DNA of 64,000 nt from a virus. Taxonomy: Duplodnaviria; Caudoviricetes. Of this stretch, positions 8,337-42,257 are shown in pieces; position 1 is the stretch's first letter, and every line of letters starts with the position of its first letter. The stretch covers positions 1,540 to 65,539 of IMG/VR virus record IMGVR_UViG_3300037065_000037; one strand, written 5' to 3'. The notes under the pieces are model-generated. The model searched no databases, was not told the DNA's origin, and saw only the letters and a list, made by a program, of their open reading frames with translations. Position numbers and translations under genes: made by a program.

Positions 8337-8528
8337 ATGAAATGCTTTGAAGGCTGCGGCAGAGTCGTTCCCGAAGATCGCCTGACAGAATCGTCCCTTA
8401 GTCGCGTAAGATGCGACGAATGCACTCGAAGAATACTAATCGAGCGGGCTGCAATGTCGCTCGGCGAATTGCGAGTGCATGATCAGGCTATTGTCAGACA
8501 GCAAAATGGAGCGCGGCCAGGACGGTAA
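8337..8528 (+). CDS. Small C4 zinc-finger protein, DksA/TraR-like
   Basis: CFEGCGRVVPEDRL..RCDEC resembles the TraR/DksA CxxCG..IP.ERL..CxxC pattern. Confidence 0.45.
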   Translation: MKCFEGCGRVVPEDRLTESSLSRVRCDECTRRILIERAAMSLGELRVHDQAIVRQQNGARPGR

Positions 8529-8593
8529 TGGAACTGGTTGCTAACCAGCACAGCTTTCGGGCTGACGGTGTTCGACTCACCGGCGCTCCGCCA
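8508..8593 (+). tRNA. tRNA-Ser(GCT)
   Basis: Acceptor GGAGCGC/GCGCTCC, G73, encoded CCA; anticodon arm CTGG-TTGCTAA-CCAG; long variable arm; T arm CGGTG-TTCGACT-CACCG. G at position 8 is atypical. Confidence 0.85.
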
Positions 8594-8616: not shown

Positions 8617-10653
8617 ATGCAATCTCTTGGTCTTGATTTTGAAACCTTTTCCGAAGTAGACCTGAAAAAATCAGGCTTGCATAACTATGCCACCAATGAA
8701 TCCACAGGTGTGCATTGCTTCTCTTATGGCCCCGACCCGGAGCAAGTCAAGACTTGGGTGGAAGGTGAGCCCTTCCCCGAGGATCTCAAGGCTCACGTCG
8801 AAGCAGGCGGCATCATCACGGCGTGGAATGCGGCTTTCGAGTGGGCTATCTGGAATCTCTGCTGCGTTCGCAAGTACGGTTGGCTTCCCCTCCCCATCAA
8901 ACAGGTCCGTTGCTCCATGGTGCGGGCCTACGCGATGGCTCTTCCTGGTGCGTTGGAAGACGCCGCGCCGGCGCTCGGAGTAGACCAGCGCAAGGACGCA
9001 GTAGGCCACAGGATCATGCTGCAGTTGGCGAAGCCGAAGAAAGATGGAACGATGTGGCGCCGCACGCCCGAGACTTTGGACAAGTTTCTCGCACTCTACA
9101 GCTACAACAAGCAGGACGTGCGTACCGAACTGGCTTGCCTTGGCCGGTTGATGGACCTGTCTCCGTCCGAGTGGGCTCTGTGGGAGCTGGACCACAAGAT
9201 CAACAACCGTGGCGTGATGTGCGATCTGGAGAGTGTTGACAAGGGCATAGCGATTATCCAGTCTGAGCAGAAGCGGCTGAACGGAGAGATGCTGAGGGTC
9301 ACCGGTGGCGTGGTCGGTTCCTGCACTGAGGTCCAGATGCTTGGCAAGTGGATTGCCTCTCAAGGCGTCGAGATGGATGGCTTGGCCAAGGCTGACGTGC
9401 TGAACGCTTTGGCCAACGATGACGAGGAGTCTGCTTCGTGGGGGGTAATACTTCCTCCGGCGGTACGCCGCGCGCTGGAACTCCGTCAGGAGGCTGCCAA
9501 GTCTTCTACTGCGAAACTGATCGCCATGCGCGACAAAGCGTCGGCAGACGGCCGCATTCGCAATATGCACCAGTTCCACGTGGCATCGACTGGTCGATGG
9601 GCAGGCCGGGGGGTACAAGTCCAGAATCTTCCGCGGCCTCGATTGGGGACAAAGTTTGCGGATGTCGAGGCTATGTTCTCGATGCTCGACGATAAGGAGA
9701 TGCTTGATTTGTTTTACGGGCCGAGCATGACTGCGATTTCCGATTGCATCCGTGGGATGCTGATCGCGGGTGAAGGCAACGAACTGGTGGCCTGTGACTT
9801 CTCTCAGATCGAAGCACGCGCGCTCCCGTGGCTTGCCGGGCAAGACGATGTGCTTGAAGTCTTTCGCACGCACGGCAAAATCTACGAGCACGCGGCGGCG
9901 GGCATCTACCACATCCCGATGGAAGAGGTAAATTGGTTTCAGAGGTTGGTCGGAAAAGTGAGCATTTTGCAACTTGGATATGGCGGAGGAGTCGGGGCTT
10001 TTCAGTCAATGGCTAAGAATTATGGTATCCACGTCCCAGATGAGGAAGCGGACGAGATTAAAACGAACTGGCGCCAAGCGAACAAAAAGACGGTTTCCTA
10101 CTGGTACGCTCTGGAGCGCGCCGCGCTCGATGCGATGCAATCGACTGGCGTGTACGCTGTCGGTCCCGCTGGCCGTCAGGTGAAGTTCCGCAAGGCCGGC
10201 TCGTTCCTGTGGATGTTGTTGCCCAGCGGCCGCGCTCTGTGCTATCCGTACCCAGAGATTCGTACAGTGATGACTCCTTGGGGCGCAGAAAAAGAAGCGC
10301 TCACGTTCATGACTGTCGTTGATCAGACGCAGAGAAAGAAGCTGAAGGTTTTGCCAGATCCTAATTCGAAAGGCAGATGGCAGCGTGTGTCCACGCATGG
10401 CGGGCCGTTAGCTGAGAATGCGACGCAGGGCTTCTGTCGTGATCTTCTGGCTACAGCGATGACCGCGATCGAAGCTGAGGACATTCCCATTGTTTTCCAC
10501 GTTCACGACGAGCCTGTGGCTGAAGTTAAGCAGTTCCGCGCGCAGTACGCGATGGAGCGTATGATCGCGATCATGTCCACAACGCCAAGCTATGCGCCGG
10601 GATTACCATTGGCTGCCGAGGCTTGGCACGGGAAGCGTTATAGGAAGGGGTGA
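8617..10653 (+). CDS. polA: Family A DNA polymerase with 3'-5' exonuclease
   Basis: DFET exo I, STGRW..QNLPR, DFSQIEAR (motif A), K...L..GYG (motif B), HVHDE (motif C). Confidence 0.95.
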   Translation: MQSLGLDFETFSEVDLKKSGLHNYATNESTGVHCFSYGPDPEQVKTWVEGEPFPEDLKAHVEAGGIITAWNAAFEWAIWNLCCVRKYGWLPLPIKQVRCSMVRAYAMALPGALEDAAPALGVDQRKDAVGHRIMLQLAKPKKDGTMWRRTPETLDKFLALYSYNKQDVRTELACLGRLMDLSPSEWALWELDHKINNRGVMCDLESVDKGIAIIQSEQKRLNGEMLRVTGGVVGSCTEVQMLGKWIASQGVEMDGLAKADVLNALANDDEESASWGVILPPAVRRALELRQEAAKSSTAKLIAMRDKASADGRIRNMHQFHVASTGRWAGRGVQVQNLPRPRLGTKFADVEAMFSMLDDKEMLDLFYGPSMTAISDCIRGMLIAGEGNELVACDFSQIEARALPWLAGQDDVLEVFRTHGKIYEHAAAGIYHIPMEEVNWFQRLVGKVSILQLGYGGGVGAFQSMAKNYGIHVPDEEADEIKTNWRQANKKTVSYWYALERAALDAMQSTGVYAVGPAGRQVKFRKAGSFLWMLLPSGRALCYPYPEIRTVMTPWGAEKEALTFMTVVDQTQRKKLKVLPDPNSKGRWQRVSTHGGPLAENATQGFCRDLLATAMTAIEAEDIPIVFHVHDEPVAEVKQFRAQYAMERMIAIMSTTPSYAPGLPLAAEAWHGKRYRKG

Positions 10654-10657
10654 TTTA

Positions 10658-11113
10658 ATGGCTAATTGGAATAAAAGATTTCTTGACATGGCATGTTTGT
10701 TTGCGAGCTGGTCGAAAGATCCTTCTACGAAAGTCGGATGTGTCATTGTGGACGAAGATCATAACCTGCTTTCGGCGGGTTTCAACGGTTTCCCCCGTGG
10801 CGTAGCTGACGACCGTCGCCTGTATGATCGCGAGACAAAGCTGAAGCTGGTGGTCCATGCGGAGGCAAATGCTGTAGCCGCTGCGGCGCGGAATGGGCAC
10901 TCGCTCAAGGGAAGTGTGGCATACATCACTCTGCCGCCATGCGCACAGTGCGCCGCGCTGCTCATTCAAGCCGGTATGTGCCGGGTCGTGTTTCTAAGTG
11001 GAACCAAACCGAGTAAGTGGGAAGCCGACTGGGCATTGGCCCAAGGGCTACTGACCGAAGCTGGCGTTCAATTTGAGGAAAAAGATCATGAAAACAGTTA
11101 TGAGGCCACCTAG
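10658..11113 (+). CDS. dCMP deaminase
   Basis: SKDPSTKVGC, GFNGFPRG, HAEANA, PCAQC. Confidence 0.92.
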   Translation: MANWNKRFLDMACLFASWSKDPSTKVGCVIVDEDHNLLSAGFNGFPRGVADDRRLYDRETKLKLVVHAEANAVAAAARNGHSLKGSVAYITLPPCAQCAALLIQAGMCRVVFLSGTKPSKWEADWALAQGLLTEAGVQFEEKDHENSYEAT

Positions 11114-11540
11114 TCTGGAGCTCCTTGAGAAGAAAGTTCGGGGCTCAAGTGAAGTGGATCGGTATTGGATAGTCCGTGATAATAACAGGAGGGGTTTCAT
11201 CGCTCTCCAGGTTCACGTATCGTATCCCTTTTCGAGAGAGGTAGCAAAGCGATTTATGAATACTTTGAATGGGGTTCCTGTCCCGACTCGTAAACTTGAT
11301 CTTCCTGAGGGGGTGTAGGGCTATGGGTTACAACGATCTAAGTCAATCCACGTTGACGCCGCAGGAGAGACGTCTCGAAGCATCCAAGATTGTGGGCCGA
11401 ATTCAGGACTGCCTGGATCAGATGACTCTAGGCGAACGTAAGTTTGTGGAGTCGATGGGCTGTGACTTCGCGCCTGTTAGCGTGAAACAGTTGTTTTGGT
11501 TGCGGGATCTGAATGAGAAATACTGAAGGAGGGCACAAAG

Positions 11541-12035
11541 ATGAGTTTTAGCGCAAAGAGGTACTCGGAAAAGCATCACGAGATAGCGAAGGCGGCGAAG
11601 AAAGTTTTGTTCATGTGGGAGATGGACAAACGGTATATGGCTGATGTGCGGGATCGCAGCAAGATACAATGCTGCGGGGTCATTTCCAGGGAAAAGGCTC
11701 GCAGGATATGGGCGATCATTCAGGATCGGGACGAAGCTGAAGCTAAGCCATACGAGTTTCTGAACTCTGGATTCCTTGAGTTGATGAACGAGATCGGCCG
11801 CTATGGCGAGGAGAAATACGGTGCCGATAGCTTCCACGCCAGAGCGCAGACCGGGGATCGCTCACGAGGTAGCCTGTTACGGACGCGGAAGGAACAGATT
11901 CTCAATCACGCGCGTCAACACATTACAGACTACGAGAACGGTATTCTGCACGACCATTTTGGCGACGCAAGTCACCAGCTTGCCGCCGCGGCTTTCAATC
12001 TGCTCATGGAATTCTACTTTTCTCAGGGTGAGTAA
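11541..12035 (+). CDS. Protein with C-terminal dATP/dGTP diphosphohydrolase-like (DUF5664) domain
   Basis: GRYGEEKYG..NHARQHI..HQLAAAAFNLL pattern. Confidence 0.55.
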   Translation: MSFSAKRYSEKHHEIAKAAKKVLFMWEMDKRYMADVRDRSKIQCCGVISREKARRIWAIIQDRDEAEAKPYEFLNSGFLELMNEIGRYGEEKYGADSFHARAQTGDRSRGSLLRTRKEQILNHARQHITDYENGILHDHFGDASHQLAAAAFNLLMEFYFSQGE

Positions 12036-14210
12036 GTGTCCTCTTCTCAATTCGAATTCGCGCTGCGTTTGGCTGCCGGTGGATTCCGTATTTTTCCGTG
12101 CATATCCAACTCTAAGTTGCCGGCGGTTAAAGACTACCCGAACGTCGCGACTACGGACCCAGAGCAAATCGAATCCTGGTGGAGAGATCAGCCGGGGAAC
12201 ATTGGAATATCCACCAGTCACTACAGCAGGGATCAAGCCCTAGTGGTTGTGGATGTCGACATAAAGAAGGGCAAGCGCGGAGATCTGAGCCTTCTCAATC
12301 TCGAACTTGAGGGCTTTGAGCTACCCGAGACATTCACGGTTTTAACGCCAAGTGGTGGCTCCCACTTCTACTACCGGACGCCCAAGGCTTTGCGCCAAGG
12401 GACCGACACCCTCGGAAGCGGTATAGACACAAGAAGTCGTGGCGGATATGTCTTGGGACCAGGTAGCGTCATCGATGGCAAAGAATACGTGGTTTCGCAT
12501 CACACTCAGATTGCACTGGCTCCAGACTGGCTAGTCCAGCGCCTCGGCGCGGCCAAGGAGCGCGCTGAGGGGGATACGAAGGCGCTGACGGGCATTGAGC
12601 CGGGCCGAGCGGCGCAGCGGGCCGCTGCGTGGCTGGAATCCTATGCCCCGACAGCGACCGAGGGCGCCGGGGGCGATACCGAGACCTACAAGGTGGCTTT
12701 GCACCTGAAGGACTTGGGCTGCTCGGCCGATCAGGCGATCGAGCTGATGACCTCTTGGAATGAGCGCTGCTCTCCTCCCTGGAACGACGAAGAACTTGAA
12801 ACGAAAGTTCGCAACGCGTTCAAGTATGGAAAAGATCCGCAAGGTGTGGCTGCGCCGGAGGCAATTTTCCCTCCAGTCGAACCCCAGACTGAGGAGCAGG
12901 CTAAACTCCACCCTTTCTATAAGTTGAACGAGAATTTTGCTTTTGTCTTCGCCGGGGGCACAGGCAACATCTTGTGGGAAACGACGGATCGGAAGGCTGA
13001 CTATGCCTTCCACCTGATGAGCAAGCAGTCGTTTCTGGACATGCAGGCCAACAACAAGCTGCAGATCGCAGATAAGCTCAGACCTGTGGCTCCGATGTGG
13101 TTGGAGTGGCCTGAGCGCAGGAGCTTCGACGGTATGGTCTTCGAGCCGGGCTTGGATGCAGGCGCTCGTTGGTTCAATATGTGGAGGGGCTTCGCCGTGA
13201 AGCCGGCCGACACCCCGGATCACCCCATGGTCGAGCGCTGGAAAGAGCATCTGCTTGAGAACATCTGTGGTAACGAGAAGCTATTGGCTGACTGGCTCAC
13301 CGGCTGGTTTGCCCATCTGGTGCAGAAGCCGTACGAGAAGCCATTGGTGGCTGTTGTCTTCCGCGGCGGGAAGGGCACAGGCAAGAATGCACTTGTGGAG
13401 CGTGTCAGCAGATTGCTCGGCGGCCATGCCATGACCACGTCTCGCCGCCGATATTTGGTTGGCAACTTTACCTCGCACTTGCAACGGTGCTTGCTGTTTG
13501 TTCTCGACGAGGCTTTCTGGTCCGGGGATAAGGAAGCGGAAGGCGTGGTCAAGGATCTGGTGACCGGCACAGAGCACCTGATCGAGTTGAAGGGAAAAGA
13601 GTCATTTACGGTTCGGAACCTGACCAGGGTGGTCGTGATCGGCAATGAGGAGTGGCTTGTGCCAGCCAGTGAGGACGAGCGCCGTTGGGCGGTCTTTGAG
13701 GTGGGGGATGGGCGCAAGCAGGATCGCAAGTATTTCGAGGAGATGCGCCTGGGCTTGGACGAGCAAGGAGGCTCGGCTTATCTGCTGCGCTACCTCATGG
13801 ACTACAAGATCACGCAGGACGTGAACCTGGCTCCTAACACGGCGGGCCTTACCTCTCAAAAGATTTCGTCTCTGGAGCCCGTACCACAATGGTGGTACGA
13901 TACATTGTCGGCGGGTACGATCGCCGGCGGCGACTGGGGTGGCGAATGGCCGGATACGATTCCCTCTAATCGGCTGCGGGAGGCTCTTCGCCGTTGGTCT
14001 GGCAATCGGAACATTAAGGGGAGGCTGCCCAACGACGTGGGCTTTGGAAAGATCCTTCGCCAGATGGCGCCAAGCTTTGAGAAGAGGAAGATCGGTGGCG
14101 CGCGGCTGGCAGAGGGTGATACGAGCTACGCCTACTTCAAAGCGCCTCTGGAAACTTTGCGGAAGGAATTTGACAAGTATATAGGGGGTGGCGTGCCGTG
14201 GACGGAATGA
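12036..14210 (+). CDS. Bifunctional primase-polymerase fused to SF3 (DUF5906/D5-like) helicase
   Basis: NIGI..VVDVD..TPSGGSHFYY..IDTR..GGYV Prim-Pol; GGKGTGKN Walker A, LDEA. Confidence 0.9.
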   Translation: MSSSQFEFALRLAAGGFRIFPCISNSKLPAVKDYPNVATTDPEQIESWWRDQPGNIGISTSHYSRDQALVVVDVDIKKGKRGDLSLLNLELEGFELPETFTVLTPSGGSHFYYRTPKALRQGTDTLGSGIDTRSRGGYVLGPGSVIDGKEYVVSHHTQIALAPDWLVQRLGAAKERAEGDTKALTGIEPGRAAQRAAAWLESYAPTATEGAGGDTETYKVALHLKDLGCSADQAIELMTSWNERCSPPWNDEELETKVRNAFKYGKDPQGVAAPEAIFPPVEPQTEEQAKLHPFYKLNENFAFVFAGGTGNILWETTDRKADYAFHLMSKQSFLDMQANNKLQIADKLRPVAPMWLEWPERRSFDGMVFEPGLDAGARWFNMWRGFAVKPADTPDHPMVERWKEHLLENICGNEKLLADWLTGWFAHLVQKPYEKPLVAVVFRGGKGTGKNALVERVSRLLGGHAMTTSRRRYLVGNFTSHLQRCLLFVLDEAFWSGDKEAEGVVKDLVTGTEHLIELKGKESFTVRNLTRVVVIGNEEWLVPASEDERRWAVFEVGDGRKQDRKYFEEMRLGLDEQGGSAYLLRYLMDYKITQDVNLAPNTAGLTSQKISSLEPVPQWWYDTLSAGTIAGGDWGGEWPDTIPSNRLREALRRWSGNRNIKGRLPNDVGFGKILRQMAPSFEKRKIGGARLAEGDTSYAYFKAPLETLRKEFDKYIGGGVPWTE

Positions 14211-14410
14211 GCCGAATCATCACATCCGATCAGCTTGCGGTCCGCTGGCGCACCAGCCGCGGGTACTTGGCAAATCTGAGGAGTCAGGGAAAGGGCTGCC
14301 CTTATGTCAAGCTGGGCCGCCGCGTGGTGTACCGCTTGGCCGACGTAAAGAAGTATGAGCTGGACCGGCGCGTCGCTGCCGAGTTTGTCAGACCAAGAGT
14401 TCGCAATTAA
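14207..14410 (+). CDS. Excisionase-like HTH protein
   Basis: LAVRW..LANLR..G.G.PYVKLGRRVVYR..DV. Confidence 0.8.
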   Translation: MSRIITSDQLAVRWRTSRGYLANLRSQGKGCPYVKLGRRVVYRLADVKKYELDRRVAAEFVRPRVRN

Positions 14411-14430
14411 AGAAAGTTTGCAAATAAGGA

Positions 14431-14459
14431 TTGACAGGATGTAAGAAGAGTGATACAGT
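14431..14459 (+). promoter_or_regulatory. sigma70-type promoter
   Basis: TTGACA-17 nt-TACAGT with TGn extension. Confidence 0.65.
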
Positions 14460-14966
14460 TTGGGAAGTGGAGGGATCAGATTATGAAAATCGAAGATTGC
14501 TCTAGCCTTCCTCCGCCACAGCCGCCGGATCGGCCGGGAATCAGGCCAGCGACGAACTGGCAGAAGGTAGCGGATATGGTCAGACTGATTCAAAAGAAAC
14601 TGGCCGGAGAACGGGTGAAGGCGAAAGGGCAGATCGATGAGCGGATCAACTTTGACAATTCGCAAGGATTCTTCAGGCAAGATCAGGTCTGTGTCTGCAT
14701 CAGGAAAGTACGCGATGGCTTTGTTCAAGGCTATGCAGCCGGTAACGGTTGAACGGGCGGCCAAACAGACGCAAAAGATCGGGGGCAATCGTGCCCGACA
14801 AGAAGATTCATGACTCGACTTGGGATCAGAAGCGGTGTGAGCATCCAGAGCACAACGCGCCAAACATGCTTTACGTGCCTCCCGGCGAAGTTTGGGAGCA
14901 TACTTGTCCGGCGTGTGGCGCCAAGACGTTTATACGTGGATCTGGCGTCTCTCTTTGATTTAAGTT

Positions 14967-15191
14967 TACGACGGCTTGTAGTGTTGGACTATGACTTGTA
15001 TGGGTGGTTCAAAATTGCTTGGAGTCCAGCCGCGGTGACGCGGTGCATATTAGTAGGACTTCTCCAGGGGTAGCCAATCCCGCTTACGCGGCGATAAGGG
15101 CGTCGAGGAATGCGGCAATCAAACATAGCCAAGTGTCCCGGTTCGATCTTGGTTATACCGAACCAAGTTGGTGAAAACCCAACCCGTCGTA
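14967..15191 (+). ncRNA. Candidate tRNA-framed structured ncRNA with pseudoknot
   Basis: TACGACGG/CCGTCGTA closing stem stacked on GTTGG-TGAAAAC-CCAAC T-arm; internal stems and an H-type pseudoknot; no credible ORF. Confidence 0.6.
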
Positions 15192-15197
15192 TCAAGT

Positions 15198-15362
15198 TTG
15201 CAGCCCCTCGGCCCGCCCAGACCGAGCACCAGGCTTCCAGTACAGCTTCAGCGCGGGCCTTTCCCTACTCCACTCACCTCGCGCTGAGGCTTGGAAGTTG
15301 GGCTGCAACGAAGAGGGCCTGAGCTGAGATTATCTGGCGATTCTCCCAGCTTGGGCCTTCTT
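15198..15362 (+). ncRNA. Candidate structured RNA(s): multibranch element plus 16-bp hairpin
   Basis: TTGCAGCCC/GGGCTGCAA, CTCGG/CCGAG, CTTCCA/TGGAAG, AGCTTCAGCGCG/CGCGCTGAGGCT; then AAGAGGGCCTGAGCTG/CAGCTTGGGCCTTCTT. Confidence 0.5.
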
Positions 15363-15400
15363 TGAAACAATTGGGCGCGTTTGGAAGAGAGGAATCGGGA

Positions 15401-15637
15401 ATGATTGTCGATTTGGAGAAAGATCAATTCGTGGCTGACTGCCCGCTTTGTGGGACTGAGGCTAAGTTGCACACAAATAACGATCGGGTGAGCCAAGCTA
15501 GTCGGTCACAGTTTTGGGTAAAATGCGATAACTTGGCTTGCCGTTGCACGACTATCGCGTATGAGTCTTCGCAAGATGCTCTGGCTATGTGGAACCGGCG
15601 TCACATCTGTGGCAGTGACGCGAGCAGAAGCGCTTAG
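15401..15637 (+). CDS. Lar-like (restriction alleviation family) zinc-ribbon protein
   Basis: CPLCG..WVKC...C..ALAMWNRR. Confidence 0.7.
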   Translation: MIVDLEKDQFVADCPLCGTEAKLHTNNDRVSQASRSQFWVKCDNLACRCTTIAYESSQDALAMWNRRHICGSDASRSA

Positions 15638-15639
15638 CC

Positions 15640-15843
15640 GTGCGCCCGGTCAACGATGCGGAAGTTCTAGCCGATCTGGACCAGCACACTGAGGGCTATG
15701 GATCTGGCGCGCGGCTGGCCCGACAGATTGGCATCGATCCCGCTCACTTGCGCGAAGTGAAGTCTGGCCGGCGGCCTATGAATCCAAAAGTGGCCGCGGG
15801 CTTAGGGTGGGAACTAAGGTGGGTTAGGAAGGTGAAGCCATGA
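15640..15843 (+). CDS. XRE-like HTH protein
   Basis: LARQIGIDPAHLREVKSGRR. Confidence 0.7.
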   Translation: MRPVNDAEVLADLDQHTEGYGSGARLARQIGIDPAHLREVKSGRRPMNPKVAAGLGWELRWVRKVKP

Positions 15844-16292
15844 ACTACGCACAAGAGCAGTACATCGAAGCGCGTAAGATGATTTACTACGAGACTGGGA
15901 TCGAGTTGCCTGACAAGAAAATCGACCGCATACTATCCATCTTCTCCACGGTTCCGAAGGTAACACTTGGAGAAGCAAACGAGATGCACGACAGATATCT
16001 GTCTACAAAAAATGGGTTGCATAACGCGTGCGTAGATTTCCTCGATGCGGTCAACGCCGTCCTTGCCAAGCAGGAGCCGGTGATTGCAGCACAGCCAACC
16101 GTCACGCTGCTAGACCCCACCGGAGGCCAGTCTATGGATGTACCGGCCAGCGCGGTGCATGAGATGGAGTACCCGGAGGTCGTCATGTACACGCCTATCG
16201 ATTTTACAGAAACAGACGAGTGCAATATCTGCGGAGCGTGTGTTGCTGACAGGGATAAGCATACTGCGTTCCATGGAAGGGCGGCGCGGTGA
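15840..16292 (+). CDS. Hypothetical protein
   Basis: Coupled to neighbours; C-terminal CxxC..H..H. Confidence 0.55.
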   Translation: MNYAQEQYIEARKMIYYETGIELPDKKIDRILSIFSTVPKVTLGEANEMHDRYLSTKNGLHNACVDFLDAVNAVLAKQEPVIAAQPTVTLLDPTGGQSMDVPASAVHEMEYPEVVMYTPIDFTETDECNICGACVADRDKHTAFHGRAAR

Positions 16293-16609
16293 TGGACAAG
16301 CCAATTCCTGAAGACCTGAAGGATCAGTATAACCGTATTGCTAATAGTTTGCGCTCAGATTGGCGGTGGGCGCTACCACTCTTCGAGCGCATAGGACACT
16401 TGGAGCAGACGGTCGCAAGCCAGCGCAAGTTGCTGGACAAGTACGACGCCGCCAATACCAAGCTCTTGCATGAGAACGCCAAGTATTATCTGAATGGGCG
16501 TAACGAGTACTACAACCGAATGAAGCACGAGCAGCGCGTCAACGCTTCGTTGCGGGGAGTTATCACACGCATGAAACGGAAGGAGAGGGATTCTATCCGC
16601 CATGACTGA
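16289..16609 (+). CDS. Hypothetical coiled-coil protein
   Basis: Overlap coupling on both sides. Confidence 0.55.
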   Translation: MMDKPIPEDLKDQYNRIANSLRSDWRWALPLFERIGHLEQTVASQRKLLDKYDAANTKLLHENAKYYLNGRNEYYNRMKHEQRVNASLRGVITRMKRKERDSIRHD

Positions 16610-41612: not shown

Positions 41613-42257
41613 TTAGTAAATATTCTGAATGAAAGTTCTGCCTGAATGCGGCCTGCCTGAGCAAAATCGATAAGTCGGAATGCCAAACGCGGCCAACGTG
41701 CCATTTCTAAGCCAAGCATGAACCGTGTAAGGACGGCGGCCTACTACCTGAGCAAATTCATTGACCGTCAACCAATGAGTACGCCACAAACAGGGAGGAA
41801 TGCGCCGCGCGGAAGAAGCGTGTAAAGAAGGACGGCGAGGGGCGGCGGCAAGAGCGCAATCCCCAGATAAAACTGGAGCCACTGTTTCGTGCATTTTATC
41901 AGCTCCAAGCATCGCGGGTAGCAAAATTGCGTGTCCGCTATCGGATCTTCTGCTAATCGCAAATTCCCAACGGGTAATCCAGCGACAATTTCCGGCCGGC
42001 GGGCAGCAACGAGGGCAAAGAAATCCTAAATCAGAATTTCTCCTACTAAGGCACATATTCTGCGCACGCGGACCCATATCAGCCGCGAACTGATCAAAAT
42101 CACGCAACCAATGCTCGCACATCACCAACCCACGTTTGCCAATCCGTTGCCAACTATCCTGGTTGGGATTAATTGCACTCTGCTTAGCGCCTTGCCAAAC
42201 AGCGTACACAGGATTGGCGGTAGATCGTATGCGCATTTTCGTTAGCATTTCCGTCAA
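41613..42257 (-). CDS. Degenerate HNH-like domain fused to an excisionase/MerR-like HTH
   Basis: YAVWQGAKQ..NP..GKRGL.MC..W..F..F..DMG.R..NCRW parallels the 798..1697 core; WLTVNEFAQVVGR..TVHAWLRNG HTH. Confidence 0.6.
   Translation of the reverse strand: MTEMLTKMRIRSTANPVYAVWQGAKQSAINPNQDSWQRIGKRGLVMCEHWLRDFDQFAADMGPRAQNMCLSRRNSDLGFLCPRCCPPAGNCRWITRWEFAISRRSDSGHAILLPAMLGADKMHETVAPVLSGDCALAAAPRRPSLHASSARRIPPCLWRTHWLTVNEFAQVVGRRPYTVHAWLRNGTLAAFGIPTYRFCSGRPHSGRTFIQNIY

What the first reader, a model, noticed from the sequence alone, without database searches (positions are those of the whole stretch)
14967..15191. tRNA-framed ~225-nt RNA with a pseudoknot; not a tRNA or tmRNA
Seen: a 7-bp acceptor-like stem ACGACGG/CCGTCGT stacks directly on a 5-bp T-arm with loop TGAAAAC, giving the canonical 12-bp tRNA top half. 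In place of D and anticodon arms there are ~190 nt: TGGACT/AGTCCA, a CCGCG-GTGA-CGCGG GNRA hairpin, and an H-type pseudoknot ATAGCCAAG(15125)/CTTGGTTAT(15148) with GGTTCG(15140)/CGAACC(15159). That pseudoknot can alternatively fold as the hairpin CTTGGTT/AACCAAG. No G3-U70 pair or tag frame. Inference: a phage ncRNA that uses a tRNA minihelix as a processing and stability handle.
Basis: partly seen in the sequence, partly recalled or inferred. Interest (0 to 1): 0.75.

Follow-up and report, generated by a model that had tools for sequence, protein, structure and literature searches.

The report
Orphan structured non-coding RNA in peat phage
A 440-base gene-free stretch of an uncultivated peat phage probably makes a folded non-coding RNA that turns up in RNA libraries, but its resemblance to the top half of a tRNA is no more than chance would give.

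Summary
The tRNA look is not supported. A 7-bp stem abutting a 5-bp/7-nt-loop hairpin occurs 2 times in the window, against 2.6 on average in random sequences. ARAGORN and Rfam find nothing. The T-like hairpin has only about 0.25 pairing probability, the TGGACT/AGTCCA helix about 0, and the 225-nt fold scores z = -1.7. The stretch lies in a 443-nt ORF-free gap (14959-15401). That gap is the tail of a small cassette running from a promoter-like site (14431-14459) through two small ORFs to a terminator-like hairpin (15309-15368). Fifteen related phages lack the cassette. The strongest structure lies just downstream, at 15198-15372 (z = -5.9). Contigs from three RNA libraries cover 14983-15185, 15012-15187 and 15136-15359, and a diverged copy ends at the equivalent of about 15190. 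Only near-identical copies could be read, so covariation could not be tested. My reading: a real, orphan, plus-strand structured RNA of unknown function. tRNA mimicry is unproven.

The parts
14431..14459 (+). Sigma-70-like promoter (TTGACA, 17 nt spacer, TACAGT, with TG before the second hexamer) at the head of the cassette
   Evidence: 10 of 12 matches. It is the only promoter-like site in 14000-16500, but shuffles average 1.5, so the consensus match alone is weak. Sequence read.
14483..14752 (+). Small ORF (89 aa from an ATG preceded by GGAGGG), no known family
   Evidence: No NCBIfam hit; the Atlas gives no usable feature hit and a low-confidence model.
14749..14958 (+). Small ORF (69 aa, Cys-rich), PHROG 28447 of unknown function; a real coding gene
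   Evidence: E = 1.1e-10; 10 of 14 natural variants are synonymous third-position changes.
14967..15191 (+). Domain 1, the finding itself: a multi-hairpin stretch closed by the long-range stem 14967-14974/15184-15191
   Evidence: Contigs from RNA libraries cover 14983-15185 and 15012-15187.
15030..15043 (+). CCGCG-GTGA-CGCGG hairpin inside the AGTCC/GGACT helix (15023-27/15056-60)
   Evidence: Pair probability 0.98. The sub-domain 15019-15065 has z = -2.80, with 0 of 200 shuffles as good. It is invariant in L020.
15125..15167 (+). Three mutually exclusive pairings: S1 at 15125-33/15148-56, S2 at 15140-45/15159-64, and the hairpin 15148-54/15161-67. This is the part best kept in the one diverged RNA-library copy.
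   Evidence: X19 record 7 matches only 15129-15173 at 85% or more.
15167..15183 (+). T-arm-like hairpin GTTGG-TGAAAAC-CCAAC
   Evidence: Pairing probability 0.22-0.26.
15198..15308 (+). Domain 2: a Y-shaped fold. A 9-bp closing stem TTGCAGCCC/GGGCTGCAA encloses a short hairpin and a long hairpin with a 20-nt C/U-rich loop.
   Evidence: I5, 100% complementary; z = -4.38, 0 of 200 shuffles as good. The variant T15279C turns a G-U pair into G-C.
15309..15368 (+). Long hairpin (18 pairs plus an inner part) ending in TTCTTTG; a terminator-like end of the unit
   Evidence: -34.4 kcal/mol, z = -6.05 on + and -27.3 kcal/mol, z = -4.63 on -. The X16 RNA-library contig ends at 15359. The simple terminator scan did not flag it.
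15401..15637 (+). Lar-like restriction-alleviation gene, the first gene after the gap
   Evidence: PF14354, 1.5e-09; phrog_599; TIGR03655, below its cut-off.

Best explanation
The finding is the first of two folded domains in a 443-nt non-coding stretch. That stretch forms the 3' part of a small, self-contained plus-strand transcription unit carried by this phage and its near-identical variants. The unit runs from a promoter-like site at 14431-59, through two small ORFs and about 410 nt of structured RNA, to a terminator-like hairpin at 15309-68. Domain 1 (about 14967-15191) is closed by an 8-bp long-range helix and holds several hairpins. Domain 2 (15198-15368) is a very stable Y-shaped fold plus the terminator hairpin.

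I infer that the primary transcript is cut in the A/U-rich single-stranded linkers. AAGTTT lies on both sides of the closing helix, at 14962 and 15194. The folded domains would then survive as stable RNAs of about 200-230 nt that act in trans, by base pairing or by binding a protein, early in infection or from a prophage.

Shown: the stretch is non-coding, the helices are thermodynamically present, RNA-library contigs cover it, and it matches no known family. Inferred: the strand, the cleavage sites and any function. The tRNA-like frame is most likely coincidental.
For: Non-coding:
- The gap ORFs have no Pfam or PHROG hit at or below E = 0.1.
- Two gap ORFs searched against 5.8 billion proteins gave nothing.
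- Variants in the gap ORFs are 2 of 6, 1 of 4, 0 of 2 and 1 of 3 synonymous, against 10 of 14 in the upstream ORF.
- L020 carries a 2-nt and a 1-nt insertion inside the gap.

Unit boundaries:
- Promoter-like site.
- Hairpin 15309-72 with z = -6.05.
- The homologues of the genes flanking 14411-15640 lie next to each other in several related phages (for example L016, L015, L007, L005, L006 and L003). The tblastn found no homologue of the two cassette ORFs in any of the 17 loci.

Structure:
- Terminal stem P = 0.85-0.95, even within the 907-nt transcript.
- 15019-65 has z = -2.80; 15192-15372 has z = -5.88.
- The plus strand folds better than the minus strand: -173.4 against -157.4 kcal/mol for the gap, and -78.4 against -69.7 for the finding.
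- T15279C changes a G-U pair to G-C, and A14968G changes A-U to G-U.

RNA:
- Contigs of three RNA libraries from three studies cover 14983-15185, 15012-15187 and 15136-15359.
- A fourth, diverged contig matches 15129-15173 and ends 16 nt later, at the equivalent of about 15190.

Variation:
- Between the window and the X10 variant, 10 of 14 listed differences in the upstream ORF fall on third codon positions.
- Only 3 differences are listed in the covered parts of 15012-15400.
Against: - No diverged homologue could be read in full, so no pair is supported by covariation.
- The fold z-scores of the finding itself are weak: -1.71 and -0.21 without the terminal stem.
- The low variation runs on into the first 91 nt of Lar (0 differences) and is followed by 12 differences in 46 nt. 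A recent recombination block explains the conservation as well as selection does.
- Contigs cannot show strand, ends or level, and an RNA library can contain DNA (caveats printed).
- G15088A breaks the loop-closing pair of the CCGC/GCGG hairpin, and T15005C breaks a pair of the 14984-92/15004-12 helix.
- The promoter and terminator are consensus or fold matches only. The host's promoter type is unknown.
- The RNase E-type cleavage motif is recalled and was not tested.
Confidence: 0.45

Rival explanations
1. A ~225-nt ncRNA has paired ends and an adjacent hairpin that mimic the acceptor/T-arm minihelix of a tRNA. RNase P and RNase Z (or the CCA-adding enzyme) therefore cut it out and stabilise it.
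For: - The 7+5-bp arrangement is present with no nucleotide between the strands.
- The terminal stem has P = 0.85-0.95.
- Three RNA-library contigs end at 15185, 15187 and the equivalent of about 15190, next to the predicted 3' end.
- The loop begins T-G-A-A-A, which fits the looser general T-loop motif (recalled).
- A14968G in L020 keeps the pair as G-U.
Against: - The arrangement occurs at chance frequency: 2 observed against a simulated mean of 2.6.
- There is no ARAGORN or Rfam tRNA/tmRNA signal, even at E up to 10.
- Relaxed ARAGORN calls are at noise level: 48 in the window against 45 in random sequence at ps80, and 319 against 381 at ps60.
- The loop lacks U55 and C56, and no CCA follows.
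- The T-like hairpin has P of only 0.22-0.26.
- The RNA-library contigs begin at 14983, about 14990 and 15012, so none contains the 5' strand. One contig crosses 15191.
Confidence: 0.12
2. No discrete functional RNA. The gap is merely a long, GC-rich, structured 3' untranslated tail and terminator left at a mosaic junction. It shows up in RNA libraries because folded RNA decays more slowly than the coding part.
For: - The cassette is missing from 15 related phages and from 2 nearly complete relatives.
- No homologue was found in IMG/VR, in GTDB genomes or in 802 genomes of the candidate host's family and phylum sampled.
- The z-scores of domain 1 are weak.
- The conservation is explainable by a recombination block.
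Against: - A diverged copy of the 3' module exists in an RNA library and ends at the same place.
- The structure of domain 2 is far beyond shuffles: z = -4.4 to -6.1.
- 410 nt is very long for a phage 3' tail.
Confidence: 0.25
3. A cis-acting leader or attenuator. The mutually exclusive hairpins at 15125-15167 and the strong terminator hairpin decide whether transcription reads on into Lar and the early genes behind it.
For: - Three competing pairings share the strand 15148-56.
- A terminator-like hairpin sits 33 nt before the Lar start codon.
- One RNA-library contig spans 15136-15359.
Against: - The competing hairpins are about 140 nt from the terminator, with an independently stable Y domain between them.
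- Nothing pairs the switch region with the terminator in the predicted folds.
- There is no riboswitch or leader hit in Rfam.
- Lar homologues in L012 and L010 are preceded by small ORFs, not by such a leader.
Confidence: 0.1
4. A DNA-level element (replication origin, or a recombination or packaging site) next to the primase-helicase gene, or an unrecognised small protein gene.
For: - The gap lies about 750 nt downstream of the PrimPol/D5-type helicase gene.
- Long inverted repeats are present.
- A 68-aa minus-strand ORF (14989-15195) spans almost the same range as the RNA-library contigs.
Against: - There are no iteron-like repeats (best direct repeats are 70-72% identical, 2 copies) and no AT-rich dip or skew change.
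- The helices rely on G-U pairs that exist only in plus-strand RNA.
- The ORFs have no homologues or families.
- Variants are mostly non-synonymous, and L020 carries frame-breaking insertions.
Confidence: 0.08

Closest known systems
tRNA and tmRNA top half (acceptor stem stacked on the T-arm)
   Same: A 7-8-bp helix formed by the two ends, abutting a 5-bp hairpin with a 7-nt loop.
   Different: - No D-arm or anticodon arm, no U55/C56 in the loop, no G3-U70, no CCA and no tag frame.
- No ARAGORN or Rfam signal.
- The arrangement occurs at chance frequency.
tRNA-like processing signals inside longer transcripts: plant mitochondrial t-elements (PMC1920247, seen only as title and start of abstract in the listing) and MALAT1/mascRNA (recalled)
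   Different: Those elements are defined by mapped ends and cleavage. Here neither is available, and the RNA-library contigs do not include the 5' strand.
Bacterial and phage YrlA Y RNAs (PMC4201824, abstract and passages read)
   Same: Modular ncRNA, partly tRNA-like, also found in phages. The ends pair in a stem.
   Different: - YrlA lies next to a Ro60 (TROVE) gene, and its tRNA-like part is internal with D- and T-arms and a GNCGAAN0-1G motif.
- There is no TROVE gene in this phage record, no such motif on either strand and no Rfam hit.
Phage T4 RNAC and RNAD (PMC9697503, passages read)
   Same: Small stable phage RNAs with no assigned function.
   Different: No sequence match to any of 50,697 phage records. 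Their link to the T4 tRNA cluster is recalled, not checked. This element is 6.4 kb from the phage's only tRNA gene.
3'-UTR-derived bacterial sRNAs cut out by RNase E and sharing the mRNA's terminator (recalled from the literature; no paper read here)
   Same: It lies behind the last ORF of a unit and ends at a terminator-like hairpin. A/U-rich linkers flank folded domains, and one RNA-library contig runs from 15136 to 15359.
   Different: Much longer (about 410 nt, two domains) than typical examples. Neither cleavage, nor Hfq or ProQ binding, nor targets are known.

Membership tests
tRNA | Cloverleaf detected by a tRNA finder or by the Rfam tRNA model | tested here: not met
   ARAGORN at default settings finds only tRNA-Ser at 8508-8593. 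Rfam gives no tRNA hit at gathering score or at E up to 10. The sub-threshold 'tRNA-Phe' at 15091-15160 appears only at ps80, where random sequence gives as many calls (48 against a mean of 45).
tRNA | 7-bp acceptor stem coaxial with a 5-bp T-stem | tested here: met
   Present at 14968-74/15184-90 plus 15167-83. But it is expected by chance (2 observed, simulated mean 2.6), and the T-like hairpin has P of only 0.22-0.26.
tRNA | T-loop with U54, U55, C56, purine 57 and A58 (recalled consensus); D-arm and anticodon arm | tested here: not met
   The loop is TGAAAAC, while the window's tRNA-Ser has TTCGACT. About 190 nt replace the D-arm and anticodon arm.
tmRNA | G3-U70 pair, tag reading frame with a resume codon, pseudoknots, 3' CCA or discriminator context | tested here: not met
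   The third pair is G-C, and ATCAAG follows the stem. ARAGORN at default settings finds no tmRNA. A 'tmRNA' call at 14968-15191 appears only at ps60, where random sequence gives more calls (319 against 381).
YrlA / bacterial Y RNA | Encoded next to a Ro60 (TROVE) gene; GNCGAAN0-1G motif; internal T- and D-arms (PMC4201824, passages) | tested here: not met
   No TROVE match in the 65.5-kb record, while the control genomes do give matches. The motif is absent on both strands of 14940-15400. The record is estimated 85% complete, so absence of the gene is not absolute.
Any Rfam 15 family | Covariance-model match | tested here: not met
   0 matches at gathering score in the window. In 14600-15600 the only matches are two chance-level ones, at E = 1.4 and 2.3 and about 20 bits below gathering score.
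H-type pseudoknot | Two stems that can coexist, with loops long enough to cross the grooves, and pairs kept in variants | tested here: inconclusive
   Both stems exist in sequence. Only 2 nt (15157-58) are left to cross the 9-bp S1 (geometry recalled, not computed). G15141A (X10, X19, L020) breaks S2, and no change at 15163 is listed in the two contigs that cover both sites. The nested-fold tools used cannot score pseudoknots.
Intrinsic terminator | GC-rich hairpin followed by a U-tract | tested here: inconclusive
   The hairpin at 15309-15364 folds at -34.4 kcal/mol with z = -6.05, and its 3' end reads TTCTTTG. The pattern scan did not list it, because its apical part exceeds the scan's loop limit. 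Termination itself was not tested.
3'-UTR-derived sRNA | Discrete RNA processed from the 3' end of an mRNA, with mapped 5' and 3' ends | not testable with these tools
   Only contigs from RNA libraries were available. They show neither ends, nor strand, nor level.

The most novel reading that the evidence does not exclude
The RNA is the founder of an unrecognised family of phage tRNA-top-half mimics. On this reading, a ~225-nt RNA with a minihelix end is released by tRNA-processing enzymes and acts as a decoy for host factors that recognise the tRNA acceptor/T-arm, such as tRNA-targeting defence toxins. That would fit its place beside the anti-restriction gene Lar. The diverged copy seen in one RNA library, whose 3' tail differs at four positions yet ends at the same place, would be a second member.
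Probability: 0.08. Interest if true: 0.7.

Novelty: new member of a known kind. Interest (0 to 1): 0.33.

Why it matters
Phage non-coding RNAs from soil and peat are almost unexplored. This one has some support from RNA libraries of environmental samples, sits in a portable promoter-to-terminator cassette next to an anti-restriction gene, and belongs to no described family. If it proves to be a discrete stable RNA, it would be a tractable example of an accessory RNA gene in phages whose only host hint points to Acidobacteriota. For the scan, the useful lesson is negative. An acceptor-plus-T-arm look-alike arises about twice per 64 kb by chance, so it should not be read as tRNA mimicry without a canonical T-loop, covariation or mapped ends.

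Tried and rejected
**Homologue searches that found nothing useful**
- blastn against 50,697 phage records.
- blastn and nhmmer against 17 related loci.
- Whole records of 5 relatives (only one 20-nt match, at E = 0.1).
- Exact and degenerate DNA patterns in viral contigs: searches gave none. One search gave 5 hits, all chance matches on inspection.
- The same degenerate pattern in genome contigs (none).
- The upstream ORF as a protein query in viral contigs (none).
- 401 genomes of the family and 401 of the phylum of the MAG that holds a PrimPol relative. One search gave 0. One search gave 7 matches of 20-34 nt at E = 0.002-0.01, which is what 401 genomes give by chance.
- In metagenome contigs the upstream ORF gave 5 loci. 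Only L020 carries the RNA region, and it is cut at window position 15148. L022 (52% protein identity) has ordinary genes behind the ORF.
- Because only near-identical copies could be read, I built no covariance model and made no covariation count.

**Other analyses that led nowhere**
- Relaxed ARAGORN is rejected as noise after calibration.
- A scan for targets of the C/U-rich loop at 15255-82 gave only GC-rich chance duplexes, and the Lar start region was unremarkable.
- The neighbouring small proteins gave no functional hint.

**Points about the RNA libraries that are not evidence**
- The three laid RNA-library runs show no cover on the flanking genes.
- The 5' parts before 14983 are uncovered.
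- The DNA run X10 has a hole at 15172-15214, so it does not show DNA 'going on' where the RNA contigs stop.
- The 16 loose letters before 15136 in X16 look like sequencing adapter (recalled). That would mean many fragments end there, but the library chemistry is unknown, so I draw no strand or end from it.

**Tools and files not available**
- Supplementary files of papers were not opened. Those of PMC4201824 (lists of YrlA RNAs, including phage ones) could bear on the Y RNA comparison.
Full report
**Where it lies.** The window is bases 1540-65539 of a 65,539-base IMG/VR virus record, estimated 85% complete. The finding sits in the plus-strand early and replication module:
- SNF2 helicase, DUF2800 nuclease and Enc34-type SSB.
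- tRNA-Ser(GCT) at 8508-8593.
- Family A DNA polymerase, dCMP deaminase and a PrimPol/DUF5906 primase-helicase at 12036-14210.

Coordinates 14967-15191 fall in an ORF-free gap, 14959-15401. The gap lies between a 69-aa ORF (14749-14958, PHROG 28447) and a Lar-like restriction-alleviation gene (15401-15637).

**Check of the observation.** It is not beyond chance:
- I counted, on both strands, every perfect 5-bp hairpin with a 7-nt loop that is followed at once by 7 nt whose complement lies 40-300 nt upstream. The window has 2: the real tRNA-Ser and this one. One hundred first-order Markov simulations of the window average 2.6, and 74 of 100 have at least 2.
- The window holds 180 perfect 8-bp inverted repeats 150-300 nt apart.
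- The fold of 14967-15191 is -78.4 kcal/mol with z = -1.71 (8 of 200 shuffles as good). Without the terminal stem (14983-15190) z is -0.21.

Pairing probabilities are as follows:
- Terminal stem: 0.85-0.95, even in the 907-nt putative transcript.
- GTGA hairpin: 0.98.
- T-like hairpin: 0.22-0.26. It competes with a 3-bp extension of the terminal stem (inverted repeat I1) plus a GGT-GAAA-ACC hairpin.
- TGGACT/AGTCCA: 0.00, because both strands have better partners (14984-92/15004-12 at 0.73; 15023-27/15056-60 at 0.71).
- S1: 0.15-0.23. S2: 0.06-0.07. The alternative hairpin: 0.63-0.71.

The pseudoknot as drawn leaves 2 nt to span a 9-bp stem. By general pseudoknot geometry (recalled) that is not feasible in full.

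**Not a tRNA, a tmRNA or a known RNA family.**
- ARAGORN finds only tRNA-Ser.
- Rfam 15 gives no match at gathering score in the window. In 14600-15600 at E up to 10 there are only two chance-level matches.
- With thresholds lowered, ARAGORN calls a 'tRNA-Phe' at 15091-15160 (ps80) and a 'tmRNA' at exactly 14968-15191 (ps60). At those settings the window gives 48 and 319 calls, and random sequences give 45 and 381. These calls mean nothing.
- The loop TGAAAAC lacks the U55 and C56 seen in the phage's own tRNA-Ser loop TTCGACT. The third pair is G-C, and ATCAAG follows the stem.
- The YrlA features taken from PMC4201824 (passages) are absent. There is no TROVE gene in the record and no GNCGAAN0-1G motif.

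**Non-coding.**
- Four ORFs of 56-82 aa overlap the gap. None has a Pfam or PHROG hit at or below E = 0.1.
- The two most plausible, 14989-15195 on the minus strand and 15110-15322 on the plus strand, have no relative among 5.8 billion proteins.
- Natural variants (below) are synonymous in 10 of 14 cases in the upstream ORF. In the gap ORFs the counts are 2 of 6, 1 of 4, 0 of 2 and 1 of 3.
- L020 has a 2-nt and a 1-nt insertion inside the gap. That contig may carry errors, since its upstream ORF also looks frame-shifted.

**A cassette that relatives lack.**
- PrimPol relatives at 73-87% identity were found in 15 IMG/VR loci, with 2 more at 31-38%. None has any similarity to 14900-15420 by blastn or nhmmer. 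The whole records of five of them, two of which are 97-100% complete, also lack it.
- In several of these loci (for example L016, L015, L007, L005, L006 and L003) the homologues of 14198-14410 and 15640-15843 are adjacent. So 14411-15640 is an insert relative to them. L012 and L010 have a Lar homologue there, preceded by small ORFs.
- The insert starts with a promoter-like site (TTGACA, 17 nt, TACAGT with an upstream TG, at 14431-59). Then come an 89-aa ORF with a GGAGGG ribosome-binding site (14483-14752), the 69-aa ORF and the gap.
- The gap ends in a long hairpin at 15309-15364 followed by TTCTTTG (-34.4 kcal/mol, z = -6.05).
- This layout, promoter then genes then terminator, is that of a moron-type accessory unit (the term is recalled).

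- 15198-15308 folds into a Y shape closed by a perfect 9-bp stem (I5), with z = -4.38.
- 15192-15372 as a whole has z = -5.88, with 0 of 200 shuffles as good.
- Inside the finding, only 15019-15065 (AGTCC/GGACT enclosing the GTGA hairpin) stands out (z = -2.80). 15120-15191 has z = -1.40 and 15066-15124 has z = -0.25.
- The plus strand folds better than the minus strand throughout, because several helices use G-U pairs. That is my main reason for assigning the RNA to the plus strand.

**Near-identical copies and their variants.**
- The upstream ORF as a query in metagenome contigs gave five loci. L020 carries the RNA region at 93% mean column identity over the whole alignment (about 97% over the part they share, since the contig stops at window position 15148).
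- Twenty public runs hold part of 14750-15650, labelled peat, permafrost, freshwater or wetland metagenomes.
- From the laid DNA run X10 and the RNA-library contigs, the variable sites are: 14992 T>C, 14994 A>G, 15005 T>C, 15011 A>G, 15088 G>A, 15141 G>A and 15279 T>C.
- L020 adds 14968 A>G and 14977 T>C.

Read against the helices, the variants sort as follows:

| Site | Effect |
|---|---|
| 14968 | keeps the terminal pair (A-U becomes G-U) |
| 15279 | improves a pair (G-U becomes G-C) |
| 14992 | compatible with the 14984-92/15004-12 helix |
| 15011 | compatible with the 14984-92/15004-12 helix |
| 15005 | breaks a pair of the 14984-92/15004-12 helix |
| 15088 | breaks a loop-closing pair |
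| 15141 | breaks S2 with no change listed at 15163, but lies in a loop if S1 or the alternative hairpin forms |
| 14977 | breaks the 3-bp extension of the terminal stem |

This is too little, and too mixed, to count as covariation.

The covered parts of 15012-15400 show 3 listed differences. The upstream ORF shows 14, of which 10 are at third codon positions. That looks like constraint. But the first 91 nt of Lar show none either, and the next 46 nt show 12. A recombination block is an equally good explanation.

**RNA libraries.** Contigs from three metatranscriptome runs of three studies lie on the gap:
- X17 covers 14983-15185.
- X19 covers 15012-15187.
- X16 covers 15136-15359.

A fourth contig (X19 record 7, 201 nt) matches only 15129-15173 at 85% or more. 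Upstream of that match it carries a recognisably related but diverged sequence with one extra base. Downstream it carries a 16-nt tail that keeps CCAACCC but differs in the last positions. It ends at the equivalent of about 15190.

By the tool's own caveats, contigs show neither ends, strand nor level, and DNA can be present in RNA libraries. I treat this as a hint that the region is present as RNA and that an end near 15190 exists, not as proof.

AAGTTT occurs just before the terminal stem (14962) and 3 nt after it (15194). It resembles the RNase E preference R-N-cut-W-U-U (recalled). This gives an ordinary route to the same ends without tRNA mimicry.

**Host hint.** A 1,893-nt contig binned in a Terracidiphilus MAG encodes a PrimPol 82% identical to the phage's. 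This is a weak hint of an Acidobacteriota host. The RNA was not found in the 802 genomes of that family and phylum that I searched.

**Verdict.** The stretch is most likely part of a real, plus-strand, two-domain structured non-coding RNA at the tail of an accessory cassette. It is an orphan with no described family and no known function (confidence 0.45). The tRNA-handle idea remains possible (0.12), but every test available here either failed or was at chance level. The alternative that it is only a stable untranslated tail has about 0.25. The decisive data are strand-specific read mapping, full-length diverged copies from the same RNA libraries, and cleavage assays.

Noticed in passing
window 15198-15372: A very stable Y-shaped fold plus a long hairpin lies directly downstream of the finding (z = -5.88, 0 of 200 shuffles as good). 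It has a 20-nt C/U-rich apical loop at 15258-15277. It is more striking than the finding itself.
   Followed up: partly
window 14411-15640: This whole segment (promoter-like site, two small ORFs, the gap, Lar) is an insert relative to several related phages, in which the flanking genes are adjacent. Those relatives instead carry a different insert of about 1.1 kb between PrimPol and the 14198-14410 homologue (for example a 398-aa ORF at L012 6079-7275).
   Followed up: partly
window 15492-15537 (inside Lar): Twelve differences in 46 nt between the window and the X10 variant, after 91 nt with none. This is a sharply bounded hypervariable or recombined patch, including one single-site change that would read as a stop.
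   Followed up: no
RNA run X19, record 7: A diverged relative of the 3' module (15129-15173) exists in a metatranscriptome but in none of the DNA collections searched. It is the only sign of a wider family.
   Followed up: partly
window 8508-8593 and 8617-10653: The phage's single tRNA gene, tRNA-Ser(GCT), lies 23 nt upstream of its family A DNA polymerase gene.
   Followed up: no
window 10592-12035: A dCMP deaminase sits next to a protein with a near-threshold match to the N-terminal domain of dATP/dGTP diphosphohydrolase (26.2 bits against a cut-off of 27). This may hint at nucleotide-pool manipulation or a modified base.
   Followed up: no
window 42101-42190 (minus strand): ARAGORN at a 90% threshold calls a second, sub-threshold tRNA-Ser(GGA) here, inside the region of a large minus-strand ORF. 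It is probably spurious.
   Followed up: no
L030 (genome contigs): A 1.9-kb contig binned in a Terracidiphilus MAG carries a PrimPol 82% identical to the phage's. This is the only host hint, and a weak one because the contig is short.
   Followed up: partly
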